This document shows, in pieces, positions 19,029 to 64,000 of a DNA stretch of 64,000 nt. The stretch comes from Dictyostelium discoideum (lineage: Eukaryota). Under the pieces are notes generated by a model that was not told the DNA's origin, ran no database searches, and saw only the letters and a program-made list of their open reading frames with translations. The first letter of the stretch is position 1; every line of letters starts with the position of its first letter. The stretch is taken from positions 6,208,001-6,272,000 of the forward strand of contig CM000151.3 in assembly GCA_000004695.1 (NCBI GenBank), given 5' to 3'. A program made the translations under genes and the position numbers.

Positions 19029-19101
19029 CACCCATTGTGGGTCTCGATCCCACGACCTGCAGCTTAGAAGGCTGCCGCAATTCCAACTTTGCTAAACGGG
19101 C
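19029..19101 (-). tRNA. tRNA-Arg (anticodon UCU)-like, 73 nt; possibly a diverged copy
   Basis: Cloverleaf GCCCGTT-TA-GCAA-AGTTGGAA-TTGC-G-GCAGC-CTTCTAA-GCTGC-AGGTC-GTGGG-ATCGAGA-CCCAC-AATGGGT-G. D-arm and anticodon arm are canonical, but the acceptor stem has 2 G-U pairs and the T-loop has A54 instead of T54. Confidence 0.5.
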
Positions 19102-60497: not shown

Positions 60498-61319
60498 ATG
60501 GTATTATATATTATTGGATTGGGATTAGGTGATGAAAAAGATGTAACAATTAAAGGATTTGAAGCAATAAAGAAATCAAGTAAAATTTATTTAGAAGCAT
60601 ATACATCATTATTAGGTGGATCAACATCAATTGAAGCATTAGAGAAATTTTATGAAAAAAAGATTATTATAGCCGATAGAGAAATGGTTGAATCAGGTTG
60701 CGAAGAAATGTTAAAAGAATCAACAGAGAATGATGTTTCATTTTTAGTTGTAGGTGACCCATTCGGAGCAACAACTCATACAGATTTAGTTATTCGTGCT
60801 AAAGAATTATCGATTCCAGTTAAAGTGATTCACAATGCCTCAATTATGAATGCAATTGGTTGTTGTGGTCTTCAATTATATAGTTATGGTCAAACCATAT
60901 CAATGGTATTCTTTACAGAAACCACCAAACCCGATAGTTGGTACGATCGTGTTAAAATCAATCGTGTCAATGGTATGCATACCCTCTGCTTATTAGATAT
61001 CAAAGTTAAAGAACAATCAATTGAAAATATGTGTCGTGGTCGTTTAATTTATGAACCACCAAGATTCATGACCGTTAATCAATGTATTGAACAACTCTTG
61101 GAAATTGAAGAAATACGTAAAGAAAAAGTTTACGATCAAGATACCCTATGCATTGGTTTATCTCGTGTTGGTCAAGATGATCAACAAATCATTTCTGGTA
61201 CTATGAAAGAATTATTAGATGTTGATTTTGGTGCTCCACTTCATTCTTTTATCATTTGTGGTGATATGCATTTCATTGAAAAAGAATATTTTGAAACTTT
61301 TAGAGTTAAAAAAAATTAA
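60498..61319 (+). CDS. dph5: Diphthine synthase (diphthamide biosynthesis methyltransferase DPH5), single exon
   Basis: MVLYIIGLGLGDEKDVTIKGFEAIKKSSKIYLEAYTS...VVGDPFGATTH (tetrapyrrole-methylase fold, DPH5 signatures). Confidence 0.9.
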   Translation: MVLYIIGLGLGDEKDVTIKGFEAIKKSSKIYLEAYTSLLGGSTSIEALEKFYEKKIIIADREMVESGCEEMLKESTENDVSFLVVGDPFGATTHTDLVIRAKELSIPVKVIHNASIMNAIGCCGLQLYSYGQTISMVFFTETTKPDSWYDRVKINRVNGMHTLCLLDIKVKEQSIENMCRGRLIYEPPRFMTVNQCIEQLLEIEEIRKEKVYDQDTLCIGLSRVGQDDQQIISGTMKELLDVDFGAPLHSFIICGDMHFIEKEYFETFRVKKN

Positions 61320-61415: not shown

Positions 61416-61792
61416 TTATTGTTGTTGGTTGTTGATTTTAATATCTACCATTTCAATTGGATAACCTCTAGCAGTAATTGATTGATGGGAACCTGGTTGG
61501 AGATCAAAAACATTTACACCTCCAAATACTTTTTTGATATGATCTTCAATTTCTTTAATTTCATTTTGTTTTTCAACTTCTTTTTCTTTAGTTTGAATAC
61601 GTCTTTTAATTAAATAAATTGCACTACCAACCAATGCTGAACAACCTATAAAACTACAAATTACAATTCCAGAAATTGCACCATCAGATAAAGAGGGACT
61701 TTCATCAGGAATACTTTCAACTCCTTCATTTTGGCCAGTAAACATATCAATAAATTCTCCATGTGATAAGTCACTAAATTTATTCAATGATA
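61416..61792 (-). CDS. Inhibitor_I29 (cathepsin-propeptide-like) domain type I membrane protein, exon 2 of 2
   Basis: Acceptor gaaaag|TATCATTG. LNKFSDLSHGEF (the I29 NxFxDxxxxEF motif). TM helix AISGIVICSFIGCSALVGSAIYLI followed by KRR. Confidence 0.6.
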
Positions 61793-61877
61793 CTTTTCAA
61801 AAAAAAAAAAAAAAAAAAATTATTATTATTTATATCACATTTTAAAAATTATATTTTAAATTAAAATTAATACATAC

Positions 61878-62217
61878 ATGTTGGAATATTAGAACTTGGT
61901 AAAGTAATAGAAATCGATGGTAAAATTACATCATTGATTGATTGTAATTTTCTTCCAAATGATGATTCAATGAATGAATTTTGGATATCATCTTCAAATG
62001 TTACAGTGACAAACTTTACATTTTTATTATTGGAATTTTGAATTTGGATACAATTCTCTTTGAAATTTTCAAATTTTTCATTTATTACTGAAGAATGATA
62101 TTTTACATCGTATGCATCCATCCAAGAATTAAATACTGGCCAATATTTATCATTAATTTCGTTTGAATTAATTAAACTTGGAAATATAAAAAATAAAATT
62201 AATAATAATTTAATCAT
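61878..62217 (-). CDS. I29-domain membrane protein, exon 1 of 2 (signal peptide and I29 N-terminal part)
   Basis: ATG at 62217. MIKLLLILFFIFPSLINS signal peptide. WPVFNSWMDAYDVKYHSSVINEKFENFKEN. Donor T|GTATGT at 61877. Confidence 0.6.
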
Positions 62218-62825
62218 TTTTTTTTAGAATTTTAGTTTTAATAATATTATACAATTTTTTATTTATTTATATATTTAAGATATTAAAATAAAACAAAATA
62301 AAAAAATAATAGATTATTTATAATTTTTTTTTTTTTTTTTTTTATTTTTTTTTTCTTTTTAATTTAAATTATTATTTTTTATATAAATTTTTATTTGTAA
62401 AATTAAATTTGCGTATAATTTAAATTATTTGAAAAATAACATATATTAAGATGAATCTAATTATCTTTTTGTTTTTTGATTTAAAAAAAACTTAAATTTT
62501 TTTTTTTAATCCTAGTTTGGGGGAATCTTTTTATTAAATGATTTTTGAAAAAAAAAAAAGTACAGTTTTAAAACGAATTTGTTTTTTGAAAAAACTTTTT
62601 TGGAATTTGCACCACAATTATTATTATAATACATTTTATTTATTTCTACACATATTATTTGAATTGTTTTTATTATTATTATTTTTTTAAAATTTTTTTT
62701 TAAGTCTTATAAAAAAAAAAAGTATAAATTAAAAAAAAAAGTTTAATAAAAAAAAAAAAAAAAAAAGATTTAATAAAATAAAATTAAAATAATCTTTGTA
62801 TAAAAAAAAAAAAAAAAAAAATAAA

Positions 62826-64000
62826 ATGTCCACAAAATATTTAATAATATTATTAATTTTAACAATTTCCAAAATTTCCGGATTTAATGAAATTGAACAA
62901 AAATCAATAGAAAATTATCATAATTACATAAGAATTAAAGCTAAATTATTTGGAGCAGAACCAAAGTCACCACTGAATCAAGTTAAATGGTCAAATGATA
63001 TTGCAAATAAAGTTCAAACATTTGTTAGTCAATGTAATTTAGGAGTACCACAAAATATTGAAGGAACTGGTTTTGCATTGTTTAAAGTGATGGGAAAAGA
63101 GTTTGATCCAGTTGACATTTTAAATAGAACTTTTGAAAGATCAGCACCACTATACGATTGGAGTACTGGTAATTGTAAACCTGATCAATGCTGCGACACT
63201 TATCAAACTATGATATGGAATACTTCAACTTCTGTTGGTTGTGCAAGTTCATACTGTTCAAGTGGTAGTTATAATTTCTTTGTCTGTGGATATTATCCAA
63301 TTGGTAATTTTGCAGGTATTAAGCCATATACACCAAAAGTGCAATCACAACTCACCGAAAATGGCAGCGGCGGCGGCGACACTAAATTAGAACCATCAGT
63401 AAAACCAATTTCAATTAATGTTTCATCTCGATTTATTTTACCAACAAGTTCAACTGGCGATGTTGATTGGAAATCATTAGGATTTGTAACATCAATTAAA
63501 AATCAAGGTCAGTGTGGTGGTTGTTACTCATTTGCAACATGTGCAGCATTGGAAAGTGCTTATTTAATTAAAAATAATCTTCCAAATACTGATATTGATT
63601 TATCAGAGCAAAACTTTGTTAGTTGTGTAAATTATGGTTGTGGTGGTGGAAATGGTCAATCATGTTTAGATAAATTAAAATCCACTGGTATTATGTATGA
63701 AACTAGTTATCCATATAAAGCTGTTACTGGAAGTTGTCCAAATGTAATTCAAAGTCCACAACCATTTAAATGGACAGGTTATTCAAATATTCAAGGTAAT
63801 AAAGAAGCATTTTTAAATGCATTAAAATCAGGTCCAATCTATGCATCATTATATGTGGATAGTGGTTTCCAACTTTATAAATCTGGAATTTATTCATGTT
63901 CTCAATCTTCAACACCCAATCATGCAATTACAATCGTTGGTTACTCAAGTGCTGATAATTCCTATTTAATTAAAAATAGTTGGGGTACAATTTATGGAGA
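62826..64000 (+). CDS. Secreted CAP (SCP/PR-1) domain - papain-family (C1A) cysteine protease fusion; 3' end outside window
   Basis: ATG at 62826, signal peptide. CAP signatures YHNYIR..., YTQMVW-like DTYQTMIWNTSTSVGCA and FFVCGYYPIGN. Then mature C1 peptidase: DWKSLGFVTSIKNQGQCGGCYSFAT (catalytic Cys), NHAITIVGY (His), NSWG. The frame is open to nt 64000. Confidence 0.8.
   Translation, partial: MSTKYLIILLILTISKISGFNEIEQKSIENYHNYIRIKAKLFGAEPKSPLNQVKWSNDIANKVQTFVSQCNLGVPQNIEGTGFALFKVMGKEFDPVDILNRTFERSAPLYDWSTGNCKPDQCCDTYQTMIWNTSTSVGCASSYCSSGSYNFFVCGYYPIGNFAGIKPYTPKVQSQLTENGSGGGDTKLEPSVKPISINVSSRFILPTSSTGDVDWKSLGFVTSIKNQGQCGGCYSFATCAALESAYLIKNNLPNTDIDLSEQNFVSCVNYGCGGGNGQSCLDKLKSTGIMYETSYPYKAVTGSCPNVIQSPQPFKWTGYSNIQGNKEAFLNALKSGPIYASLYVDSGFQLYKSGIYSCSQSSTPNHAITIVGYSSADNSYLIKNSWGTIYG

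What the first reader, a model, noticed from the sequence alone, without database searches (positions are those of the whole stretch)
62826..64000. CAP/PR-1 domain fused in place of the propeptide of a papain-family cysteine protease
After a signal peptide the protein has a full CAP (SCP/TAPS) domain (…TYQTMIWNTSTSVGCA…FFVCGYYPIGN). It then runs directly, through a Gly-rich GSGGGD linker, into a mature C1A peptidase with intact catalytic Cys (QGQCGGCYSF), His (NHAITIVGY) and Asn (NSWG). Papain-like enzymes normally carry an I29 inhibitory propeptide. Replacement by a CAP domain is an uncommon architecture and raises the question of how latency is controlled. An I29-only membrane protein gene lies just 600 bp upstream on the opposite strand (61416-62217), which could supply a trans-inhibitor.
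Basis: partly seen in the sequence, partly recalled or inferred. Interest (0 to 1): 0.55.

Follow-up and report, generated by a model that had tools for sequence, protein, structure and literature searches.

The report
Propeptide-less CAP-cathepsin with membrane-anchored propeptide neighbour
A Dictyostelium gene encodes a papain-type protease whose usual built-in safety-catch (the propeptide) is replaced by a CAP/PR-1 domain. A membrane-anchored copy of that safety-catch is encoded by the neighbouring, oppositely oriented gene in every social amoeba examined, which suggests a zymogen split between two genes.

Summary
Window 62826-64000 (+) is one open 391-codon exon, 100% identical to D. discoideum DDB_G0276111 (415 aa). 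It encodes a signal peptide, a CAP domain (PF00188, E 2e-15), a disordered linker and a papain-family peptidase (PF00112, E 1e-41). Gln227, Cys233, His366 and Asn384 are conserved, and no I29 propeptide remains.

The upstream minus-strand gene (61416-62217, two exons) is DDB_G0276113: signal peptide, complete I29 domain, transmembrane helix, conserved cytoplasmic tail.

The new result is that the two genes form a cassette. An I29-TM gene lies head-to-head with a CAP-C1 gene in all 12 loci examined, in 8 dictyostelid species, paralogous loci included. The outer flanking genes differ between genera. The trees of the two families are largely congruent.

CAP-C1 fusions were named only in dictyostelids; a few unnamed metagenome or transcriptome relatives also exist. 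No paper in the searchable library mentions either gene.

Best reading: a genetically split zymogen, with the membrane-tethered propeptide acting in trans as chaperone, inhibitor and escort of the propeptide-less CAP-cathepsin. The architecture is shown. The trans mechanism is inferred from synteny and conservation only. I rate it a new variant of a known kind, of moderate to high interest.

The parts
62826..64000 (+). CAP-C1 protease gene DDB_G0276111. This is the first 391 of 415 codons, a single exon that runs off the window end; the stop is expected about 73 nt beyond it.
   Evidence: Open frame. 100% identity to P0001. Pfam CAP and Peptidase_C1.
62826..62882 (+). Predicted signal peptide, aa 1-19 (MSTKYLIILLILTISKISG).
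   Evidence: By inspection; the most hydrophobic 19-mer starts at aa 5. No signal-peptide predictor was available.
62913..63293 (+). CAP/PR-1 (SCP) domain, aa 30-156. It carries HNYIR, YQTMIWNTSTSVGCA and FFVCGYYPIGN motifs. The family profile extends it to about aa 170 (..GIKPY).
   Evidence: PF00188, E 2e-15. Family sub-profile aa 20-170, E 4e-77. AF2 pLDDT about 85-97 over aa 21-170.
63330..63458 (+). Inter-domain linker, aa 169-211, including GSGGGD. It varies in length and is Pro/Thr-rich in other genera.
   Evidence: Alignment A1. AF2 pLDDT <50 for aa 177-199. No homology to propeptides.
63459..63998 (+). Papain-family (C1A) peptidase domain, aa 212-391, continuing to aa 415 outside the window.
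   Evidence: PF00112, E 1e-41. PDB sequence hits to ananain, bromelain and cathepsins K and L. Foldseek TM 0.84-0.88 to mature cathepsins L/V/S/K.
63522..63524 (+). Catalytic Cys233 codon (TGT) in QGQCGGCYSF. Oxyanion-hole Gln227 is at 63504-63506.
   Evidence: Invariant in A1 and at least 90% conserved in the 41-sequence A3. Coordinates.
63921..63923 (+). Catalytic His366 codon (CAT) in NHAITIVGY.
   Evidence: Invariant in A1 and A3. Coordinates.
63975..63977 (+). Catalytic-triad Asn384 codon (AAT) in NSWG.
   Evidence: At least 90% conserved in A1 and A3. Coordinates.
62218..62825 (.). 608-bp A+T-rich intergenic region between the two divergently transcribed genes; presumed shared, bidirectional promoter region.
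   Evidence: Sequence. The same head-to-head geometry, with gaps of about 500-1100 bp, is seen in all other loci. Promoter function is not tested.
61878..62217 (-). I29-TM gene DDB_G0276113, exon 1: signal peptide, ERFNIN-type helices of the I29 domain and a family-specific insertion.
61793..61877 (-). Phase-1 intron (GTATGT...AG). Its position and phase are conserved across the six genera reconstructed, immediately before the (S)LNxFSDL segment.
61416..61792 (-). I29-TM gene exon 2: the LNKFSDLSHGEFIDMFTG end of the I29 domain, a short stalk, the transmembrane helix, the cytoplasmic tail and the stop codon.
61752..62133 (-). I29 (cathepsin propeptide inhibitor) domain, aa 29-127, spanning the intron. 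An insertion of about 44 aa sits between the ERFNIN helix and the GNFD-type motif.
   Evidence: PF08246 profile positions 1-59 of 59, E 8e-12. hhalign against canonical zymogens, 97.4% probability.
61608..61679 (-). Predicted transmembrane helix, aa 152-175 (AISGIVICSFIGCSALVGSAIYLI), followed by KRR.
   Evidence: Kyte-Doolittle mean 2.15 over 19 residues. Hydrophobic segment aligned in all family members.
61464..61496 (-). Conserved cytoplasmic tail motif PGSHQSITARG, aa 213-223. His216 and Thr220 are invariant.
   Evidence: Alignment A2. The same motif occurs in the paralogous partners of L009, L010 and L012.

Best explanation
Shown. DDB_G0276111 encodes a protein that enters the secretory pathway. 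It is built from a CAP/PR-1 domain, a flexible linker and a cathepsin-L-like papain-family endopeptidase. The peptidase keeps the full catalytic machinery but has no I29 propeptide.

Shown. The divergently transcribed neighbour DDB_G0276113 encodes a type I membrane protein. Its extracytoplasmic part is a complete I29 propeptide domain, including the segment that in zymogens runs into the active-site cleft. A transmembrane helix follows where the protease would normally start, and then a conserved cytoplasmic tail.

Shown. The two genes form an ancient head-to-head cassette that has been kept, and duplicated as a unit, throughout Dictyostelia.

Inferred. The pair works as a zymogen split between two genes. 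The two proteins are co-expressed from the shared intergenic region and meet in the ER lumen. The membrane-tethered propeptide binds the protease domain in trans, helps it fold, keeps it inactive and, through its cytoplasmic tail, escorts it to its destination. There acidification or proteolysis of the I29 domain releases active enzyme.

Inferred. The CAP domain is a non-catalytic ligand-binding or targeting module rather than the latency device.
For: Architecture. Searches give the domains and show Q227, C233, H366 and N384 conserved. The cysteines at the positions of the three papain disulfides are invariant or nearly so in the orthologue alignment A1. One search shows no propeptide homology. 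In one search both domains are confidently folded (pLDDT 88) and linker aa 177-199 is disordered. One search places the C1 domain with mature cathepsins L/V/S/K.

Partner. My spliced model equals DDB_G0276113. All 9 clade A/B partner sequences in alignment A2 match I29. hhalign to real zymogens covers both the ERFNIN helix and LNxFSDLxxEFxxxxTG, at 97.4% probability. The invariant positions are the canonical propeptide core and docking positions F29, W32, Y40, K53, N55, N63, N117, D121, E126, F127 and G133. The TM helix follows about 18 residues after G133, which I recall to be roughly the distance from this conserved Gly to the mature N-terminus in a zymogen.

Linkage. The I29-TM gene is head-to-head with a CAP-C1 gene in D. 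discoideum (window), D. firmibasis, D. purpureum, T. lacteum, C. fasciculata and P. violaceum. In A. subglobosum I reconstructed the partner from an unannotated gap. The same holds at the paralogous loci of T. lacteum, C. fasciculata, H. album and P. violaceum. The most diverged partners are still I29-TM homologues at 95.6% hhalign probability.

Internal control. The outer neighbours are different genes in every genus (same calls). The C1 and I29-TM trees largely agree on clade A and a second, clade-B grouping of the paralogous cassettes. Their distance matrices correlate, Mantel r 0.69, p 2.5e-4.

Background, from established knowledge of papain-family zymogens. The I29 propeptide is both an intramolecular chaperone and a tight inhibitor, and it can act in trans. 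Stand-alone I29 proteins inhibit cathepsin L (PMC4089206).
Against: No experiment or interaction prediction links the two proteins. I could not run a multimer prediction, and no expression data were available.

Conserved divergent gene pairs can reflect shared regulation without physical interaction.

The I29-TM protein could instead inhibit other cathepsins of the cell.

The I29 domain carries an insertion of about 44 aa of unknown effect.

The clade-C partners have diverged so far that Pfam no longer detects I29.

The Mantel correlation is partly explained by shared species phylogeny, and the trees are neighbour-joining without support values.

Some C1 peptidases fold without an I29 propeptide (established knowledge; for example bacterial C1 enzymes with other N-terminal regions, as in the C1-only hits).
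Confidence: 0.5

Rival explanations
1. The CAP domain, or the linker, is itself the latency device. It docks on or threads through the active-site cleft as a non-homologous replacement for the propeptide and is removed on activation. The I29-TM neighbour is then an unrelated or general cathepsin inhibitor.
For: The CAP domain sits exactly where the propeptide normally is and is kept in all 28 family representatives. From my own knowledge, some CAP proteins (PI15, PI16) are named as peptidase inhibitors.
Against: The linker is disordered and varies widely in length (about 20-160 aa between the domain hits) and in composition, being Pro/Thr-rich. Some members have two CAP domains or an extra Cys-rich module. 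The AF2 pTM is only 0.58 despite pLDDT 88, so no confident inter-domain packing is predicted; I could not inspect the PAE. This rival does not explain why an I29-TM gene accompanies every locus.
Confidence: 0.15
2. This is a self-processing CAP precursor. The fused protease cuts at the conserved C-terminal CAP motif (CGYY|PIGNFAGIKPY) and releases the CAP domain or a CAPE-like peptide. The analogy is plant PR1, which is cleaved after CNYD by the papain-like protease XCP1.
For: The motif C-x-Y-x-P-x-G-x-x-x-G-x-x-P-Y is nearly invariant in the family (C154, Y156, P158, G160, G164, P167, Y168). XCP1, a C1A protease, cleaves PR1 after CNYD to release CAPE9 (PMC10403534).
Against: By my own knowledge of the PROSITE CRISP signatures, the motif is a generic CAP signature, so it is conserved for structural reasons. 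The Asp that is essential at P1 in plants is replaced here by Tyr or Asn. This rival says nothing about latency or about the I29-TM partner, and it could coexist with the main explanation.
Confidence: 0.1
3. There is no dedicated latency control. The enzyme is made active, as a secreted or lysosomal digestive protease with a CAP targeting domain. The head-to-head arrangement persists only because the two genes share a bidirectional promoter, or by chance.
For: Many C1-only proteins without I29 exist in the databases. Divergent gene pairs are common in compact genomes (general knowledge).
Against: The pair is retained in 12 of 12 loci across three paralogous clades and 8 species, while no other neighbour is retained between genera. 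The partner is specifically the inhibitor domain of this very protease family. Its canonical docking residues are under purifying selection.
Confidence: 0.2

Closest known systems
Cathepsin L-like / papain zymogens (MEROPS family C1A with a cis I29 propeptide)
   Same: The peptidase fold is the same (Foldseek TM 0.84-0.88). So are the Gln-Cys-His-Asn catalytic residues and the conserved cysteines. There is about 33-43% identity to plant and animal enzymes.
   Different: There is no propeptide in cis. A CAP domain and a disordered linker take its place. The propeptide homologue is on a separate, membrane-anchored polypeptide encoded by the neighbouring gene.
Stand-alone I29 propeptide-like inhibitors: mouse CTLA-2 alpha/beta, Bombyx BCPI, Drosophila crammer (PMC4089206, PMC3286859)
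   Same: These are also I29 domains without a peptidase domain. Their known function is trans-inhibition of cathepsin L-like enzymes.
   Different: From my own knowledge, the known ones are small soluble proteins that are not reported to be genomically paired with a propeptide-less protease. DDB_G0276113 has a signal peptide, a 44-aa insertion, a transmembrane helix and a conserved cytoplasmic tail. It is always paired with a CAP-C1 gene.
Plant PR-1 / XCP1 system: a CAP protein processed by a papain-like cysteine protease to release CAPE peptides (PMC10403534)
   Same: A CAP domain and a C1A protease act together. The CAP C-terminal motif C-x-Y-x-P-x-G-N...P-Y is present.
   Different: In plants the two are separate proteins, and cleavage needs Asp at P1. 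Here they are one polypeptide and the Asp is absent. No processing has been shown.
C1A enzymes with extra N-terminal modules: the cathepsin C exclusion domain and the cathepsin F cystatin-like domain (from my own knowledge)
   Same: A non-catalytic domain sits N-terminal to a papain-fold peptidase.
   Different: Those enzymes still keep a cis propeptide between the extra domain and the peptidase. This one does not.
'Gamete and mating-type specific protein A' (GmsA) of D. discoideum, a name that some sources give to orthologues and paralogues in other dictyostelids
   Same: Only the transferred name. T. lacteum, C. fasciculata and P. violaceum CAP-C1 proteins carry it.
   Different: I could not retrieve D. 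discoideum GmsA itself, so the relationship is unverified. PMC4910948 cites Muramoto et al. 2003/2005, who tested 24 gamete-specific genes. It names gmsA as a sex-specific example and reports that none of those genes was essential for mating.

Membership tests
Peptidase family C1A (papain-like) | Sequence match to the Peptidase_C1 profile above the curated threshold | tested here: met
   PF00112, 143.9 bits against a cut-off of 20.7, aa 212-391. hhalign to zymogen mature domains gives 100% probability.
Peptidase family C1A (papain-like) | Catalytic Cys and His, the Asn that orients the His, and the oxyanion-hole Gln | tested here: met
   Q227, C233, H366 and N384 are present. They are invariant or at least 90% conserved among 10 orthologues and 41 family members.
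Peptidase family C1A (papain-like) | Papain fold (L and R domains) with conserved disulfide cysteines | tested here: met
   The AF2 model has pLDDT 88. Foldseek gives TM 0.84-0.88 and rmsd about 2 A to cathepsins L/V/S/K and ananain. C230, C267, C272, C304 and C358 are invariant and C403 nearly so in A1; C230, C267, C272 and C304 remain invariant in the 41-sequence A3. The disulfide pairing is inferred by homology.
Peptidase family C1A (papain-like) | Synthesis as a zymogen with an N-terminal inhibitory propeptide (I29 type in the cathepsin L-like subfamily) | tested here: not met
   No I29 hit at E<=1. hhalign aligns only the mature domain. The preceding region is a CAP domain plus a disordered linker.
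Peptidase family C1A (papain-like) | Proteolytic activity sensitive to E-64 | not testable with these tools
   Needs enzyme assays.
CAP superfamily (CRISP / Antigen 5 / PR-1, SCP domain) | Sequence match to the CAP profile above the curated threshold | tested here: met
   PF00188, 58.1 bits against a cut-off of 21.1, aa 30-156, covering profile positions 2-117 of 117.
CAP superfamily (CRISP / Antigen 5 / PR-1, SCP domain) | CAP signature motifs: HNxxR, the YxQ(M/I)xWxxSTxVGC-type motif and the C-x-Y-x-P-x-G-N-type motif | tested here: met
   HNYIR, YQTMIWNTSTSVGCA and FFVCGYYPIGN are present and conserved in the orthologues. The motif definitions are recalled from PROSITE and the literature, not looked up here.
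CAP superfamily (CRISP / Antigen 5 / PR-1, SCP domain) | Alpha-beta-alpha sandwich fold | tested here: inconclusive
   AF2 predicts a confident domain with helix and strand order H22-37, H57-67, E82-89, H95-109, E136-144, E149-157. The Foldseek list was filled with C1 hits, so no direct comparison with a solved CAP structure was obtained.
Stand-alone I29 inhibitors (CTLA-2 / BCPI / crammer), tested for the neighbour DDB_G0276113 | I29 domain above the curated threshold, with no peptidase domain in the same protein | tested here: met
   PF08246, 45.7 bits against a cut-off of 24.4, covering the whole profile. All 9 clade A/B partner sequences in alignment A2 match. The protein is 238 aa with no C1 domain.
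Stand-alone I29 inhibitors (CTLA-2 / BCPI / crammer), tested for the neighbour DDB_G0276113 | Small soluble protein consisting essentially of the I29 domain | tested here: not met
   The protein has a 44-aa insertion, a TM helix at aa 152-175 and a 63-aa cytoplasmic tail with a conserved motif.
Stand-alone I29 inhibitors (CTLA-2 / BCPI / crammer), tested for the neighbour DDB_G0276113 | Inhibits cathepsin L-like peptidases | not testable with these tools
   Needs inhibition assays with the recombinant ectodomain.

The most novel reading that the evidence does not exclude
The I29-TM / CAP-C1 cassette is a naturally split zymogen. The propeptide of a cathepsin has become a separate, membrane-anchored protein with its own cytoplasmic sorting tail. 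It is encoded divergently from the same promoter region. It serves as the obligatory trans-chaperone, inhibitor and trafficking receptor for a propeptide-less protease that carries a CAP domain instead. The module would be as old as Dictyostelia, would have been duplicated as a unit, and may have arisen by inversion of the 5' part of an ancestral procathepsin gene.
Probability: 0.4. Interest if true: 0.75.

Novelty: new variant of a known kind. Interest (0 to 1): 0.62.

Why it matters
Papain-family proteases are a textbook case of latency by a covalently attached propeptide. Trans-acting propeptide-like inhibitors are known only as small soluble proteins.

A conserved two-gene module would be a new way of organising zymogen control. 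In it the propeptide is membrane-anchored, carries a conserved cytoplasmic tail and is encoded next to a propeptide-less enzyme. That arrangement would couple inhibition to membrane tethering and sorting.

It would also give the enigmatic CAP/PR-1 domain a defined enzymatic partner in one polypeptide. This echoes the PR1-XCP1 relationship in plants.

The hypothesis is directly testable in D. discoideum, a genetically tractable organism in which my searches found only one such cassette.

Tried and rejected
1. The first AF2 run used only the 10 orthologues and gave pLDDT 49, so it was unusable. I repeated it with a 41-sequence alignment.

2. Inter-domain geometry could not be judged. Neither coordinates nor PAE are returned, and only pTM 0.58 is available. 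The afdb50 fold library was not installed.

3. I looked for the characterised D. discoideum GmsA protein, to explain the name given to some orthologues. A search seeded with the T. lacteum CAP-CAP-C1 protein did not return it, and the literature gave only a passing mention.

4. Literature searches for DDB_G0276111, DDB_G0276113, Dictyostelium + I29 + 'cysteine protease', and Dictyostelium + CAP superfamily found nothing relevant.

5. I considered that the weak alignment of linker residues 166-211 to the end of the bromelain propeptide might be a propeptide remnant. I rejected this because the region is not conserved among orthologues and profile-profile comparison does not align it.

6. I considered that D. 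firmibasis and D. dimigraforme had lost the adjacency, because the locus tags differ by 13. I rejected this because the genes are adjacent in D. firmibasis and the tags are simply not positional.

7. I did not attempt a chimeric I29-C1 single-chain model. Real procathepsins in the alignment would bias it towards the zymogen arrangement, so it would not be evidence.
Full report
**1. The observation**

The window is very A+T-rich, at 16-33% G+C, and comes from Dictyostelium discoideum AX4. From the ATG at 62826 the + strand stays open for 391 codons to the end of the window.

- The product is 100% identical to 'hypothetical protein DDB_G0276111', 415 aa. Only 24 codons are missing.
- Pfam finds a CAP domain (PF00188, aa 30-156, E 2e-15). 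It also finds a papain-family peptidase domain (PF00112, aa 212-391, E 1e-41). No I29 propeptide appears even at E<=1.
- The best solved relatives are ananain, bromelain, chymopapain and cathepsins K, L and V.
- The orthologous genes of D. firmibasis and T. lacteum are uninterrupted single exons. Transcriptome-derived relatives also carry both domains (P0154).

**2. The protease domain looks active, and the propeptide is really gone**

- In an alignment of ten orthologues, Gln227, Cys233 and His366 are invariant and Asn384 is at least 90% conserved. The cysteines at the positions of the three papain disulfides are invariant or nearly so.
- The catalytic residues remain invariant or at least 90% conserved in a 41-sequence alignment of the wider family.
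- Profile-profile comparison with twenty canonical zymogens aligns only the mature domain, from a few residues before the DWK/DWR motif.
- The segment between the CAP domain and the peptidase varies in length and is Pro/Thr-rich in other genera.
- A first AlphaFold2 run with ten sequences failed, with pLDDT 49.
- With 41 sequences the model is confident, with mean pLDDT 88.4. Residues 177-199 have pLDDT <50, and pTM is only 0.58. This is the pattern expected for two well-folded domains without a confidently predicted mutual orientation.
- The peptidase part superposes on mature cathepsins L, V, S and K and on ananain, with TM 0.84-0.88 and rmsd about 2 A.

**3. The upstream gene**

The minus-strand gene has two exons, 62217-61878 and 61792-61416, separated by a phase-1 GTATGT...AG intron. 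My spliced 238-aa product is identical to DDB_G0276113. Its features, in order:

- A signal-peptide-like N-terminus.
- An I29 domain that matches the whole Pfam profile (aa 29-127, E 8e-12).
- An insertion of about 44 aa between the ERFNIN-type helix and the GNFD-type motif.
- A stalk of about 18 residues.
- One strongly hydrophobic helix, aa 152-175, followed by KRR.
- A 63-aa tail.

hhalign against real zymogens (97.4% probability) aligns the segment LNKFSDLSHGEFIDMFTG with the canonical N-x-F-A-D-x-T-x-E-E-F-x5-G. From my own knowledge of procathepsin L structures, the Gly of this segment lies at the entrance of the active-site cleft. Topologically, then, the transmembrane helix sits where the mature enzyme would begin.

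**4. The main new result: a conserved two-gene cassette**

I fetched the genomic context of the orthologues and paralogues. An I29-TM gene lies upstream of, and divergent from, a CAP-C1 gene at every locus:

| Species | Locus type |
|---|---|
| D. discoideum | window |
| D. firmibasis | orthologue |
| D. purpureum | orthologue |
| T. lacteum | orthologue |
| C. fasciculata | orthologue |
| P. violaceum | locus fetched as orthologue; falls in clade B |
| A. subglobosum | orthologue; no gene was called in the gap, but I reconstructed an I29-TM gene there |
| T. lacteum | paralogue, CAP-CAP-C1 |
| C. fasciculata | paralogues, two further loci, one with tandem CAP-C1 genes |
| H. album | paralogue, two CAP-C1 genes flanking one I29-TM gene |
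| P. violaceum | paralogue, second locus |

- A profile of the I29-TM family hits both exons at ten of these twelve loci.
- Across the six genera reconstructed (seven species), the phase-1 intron sits at the same place, immediately before the (S)LNxFSDL segment.
- At the two most diverged loci (C. fasciculata DFA_01006 and P. violaceum CYY_000097) Pfam no longer sees I29. The partners are still homologous to the family at 95.6% hhalign probability, over the I29 region and the TM helix.
- That makes 12 cassettes in 8 species, with none lacking a partner.
- The outer neighbours are different genes in every genus: diphthine synthase, a chloride channel, an ABC transporter, Nop52, a prolyl isomerase and others. 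This serves as an internal control for how little synteny is otherwise retained.

**5. Co-diversification**

Neighbour-joining trees of the C1 domains and of the I29-TM partners largely agree.

- Clade A: D. discoideum, D. firmibasis, D. purpureum, T. lacteum L003, C. fasciculata L002 and A. subglobosum L006.
- Clade B: C. fasciculata L010, H. album L012 and P. violaceum L005 in both trees. T. lacteum L009 joins this clade in the I29-TM tree but branches just outside clades A and B in the C1 tree.

The pairwise distance matrices correlate, with Mantel r 0.69 and p 2.5e-4. Because C. fasciculata and T. lacteum each hold cassettes of different clades, the cassette was duplicated as a unit before the major dictyostelid groups diverged. 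The caveat is that the trees have no support values, and part of the correlation is shared species history.

**6. Distribution and prior knowledge**

- An exhaustive HMMER search of 1.84 billion representatives with the orthologue profile was followed by local scans with separate CAP and C1 sub-profiles. Together they found 28 proteins carrying both domains among the best 150 hits.
- Every one that has an organism name is a dictyostelid: Synstelium, Acytostelium, Cavenderia, Heterostelium, Tieghemostelium, Polysphondylium or Dictyostelium.
- Five come from metagenomes, Logan assemblies or an unnamed transcriptome. Their Ala/Gly/Pro-rich composition suggests other, less A+T-rich organisms.
- No paper in the searchable library mentions either gene. 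None describes I29 proteins or CAP-protease fusions in Dictyostelium.
- Some orthologues are labelled 'gamete and mating-type specific protein A' by their sources. I could not retrieve D. discoideum GmsA to check the basis of that name.

**7. Mechanism**

*Shown:* the architecture of both proteins; conservation of the catalytic residues and of the canonical propeptide core and docking residues; absence of a cis propeptide; and the conserved, co-duplicated head-to-head arrangement.

*Inferred:* the I29-TM protein supplies in trans what the propeptide supplies in cis, namely folding assistance and inhibition. Both roles are established for papain-family propeptides, and stand-alone I29 proteins such as CTLA-2 alpha, BCPI and crammer inhibit cathepsin L (PMC4089206). 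The membrane anchor and the conserved tail (PGSHQSITARG in clades A and B; STLYADYR...EFYRESHR in clade C) would add tethering and sorting. I put this at about 0.4-0.5.

*Rivals:*
- The CAP domain or the linker is the latency device. The disordered, highly variable linker, the CAP duplications and the lack of confident packing count against this.
- The protein processes itself at the CAP C-terminal motif, by analogy with plant PR1 cleaved after CNYD by the papain-like protease XCP1 (PMC10403534). The essential Asp is absent, and to my knowledge the motif is a generic CAP signature.
- There is no dedicated control, and the adjacency is purely regulatory or accidental. The 12 of 12 retention of this particular domain next to this particular protease family makes that hard to accept.

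**8. Verdict**

The individual genes are already in the databases as uncharacterised proteins with these Pfam domains, so the fusion itself is not a discovery. To my knowledge and within the searchable literature, the conserved I29-TM / CAP-C1 cassette and the split-zymogen reading have not been described. I rate it a new variant of a known kind, with interest about 0.6.

Noticed in passing
L006 6348-7309 (-) and 7920-9617 (+) (Acytostelium subglobosum DF837586.1): The public annotation has no gene in the 1.9-kb gap upstream of the CAP-C1 gene, yet a three-exon I29-TM gene is clearly there. The annotated CAP-C1 model (P0009, 310 aa, 'partial') skips the C-terminal part of the CAP domain (its CAP match stops at aa 129 and C1 starts at aa 133) and the end of the C1 domain; the locus encodes both.
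   Followed up: yes
L002 5978-7706 (-) (Cavenderia fasciculata): The annotated 307-aa I29 gene model seems over-extended at its 5' end. A signal-peptide-bearing start (MKKLLTILFS...) at about 6923 gives a 288-aa protein that aligns with the family from residue 1.
   Followed up: partly
window 61464-61496 (-); also L009, L010, L012 partners: The cytoplasmic tail of the I29-TM proteins ends in a strongly conserved motif, ...F(D/K)x..PGSH(Q/K/R)SITAR(G/A)..., with invariant His and Thr. The function is unknown; it could be a sorting or phosphorylation signal. The clade-C partners (L011, L013) have a different conserved tail, STLYADYR...EFYRESHR.
   Followed up: partly
P0141, P0145 (L009 6001-7754), P0277; P0154, P0158, P0205: The family has variants with two tandem CAP domains before the protease (about 557-559 aa). 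The unnamed metagenome and transcriptome members carry an extra small Cys-rich module between the CAP domain and a long Pro/Ser/Thr linker.
   Followed up: no
L010 3393-4769 (+) and 5995-7373 (+); L012 452-1750 (+) and 5950-7273 (+): At some loci one I29-TM gene is accompanied by two CAP-C1 genes. They are tandem in C. fasciculata and flank the I29-TM gene in H. album, so the stoichiometry of the cassette is not always 1:1. The annotated models there (424 aa and 777 aa) look partly wrong.
   Followed up: partly
P0131 (2254 aa, ENA metagenome) and P0188 (1934 aa, Octopus vulgaris): These are giant proteins made of 10 and 6 CAP-domain repeats. They surfaced in the profile search and have no C1 domain.
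   Followed up: no
window 60498-61319 (+): Single-exon 273-aa ORF with a tetrapyrrole-methylase fold (PF00590, E 7e-22). It is probably the diphthine synthase (DPH5) gene, lying tail-to-tail with the I29-TM gene. The same neighbour occurs in D. firmibasis but not in other genera.
   Followed up: partly
window 19029-19101 (-): tRNA-Arg (anticodon TCT), the only tRNA gene ARAGORN finds in the window.
   Followed up: no
(names given by sources): Several dictyostelid CAP-C1 proteins are named 'Gamete and mating-type specific protein A' in UniRef or NCBI, whereas the D. discoideum gene is 'hypothetical'. If D. discoideum gmsA is a diverged member of this family, the cassette may be linked to the sexual cycle. 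I could not verify this.
   Followed up: partly
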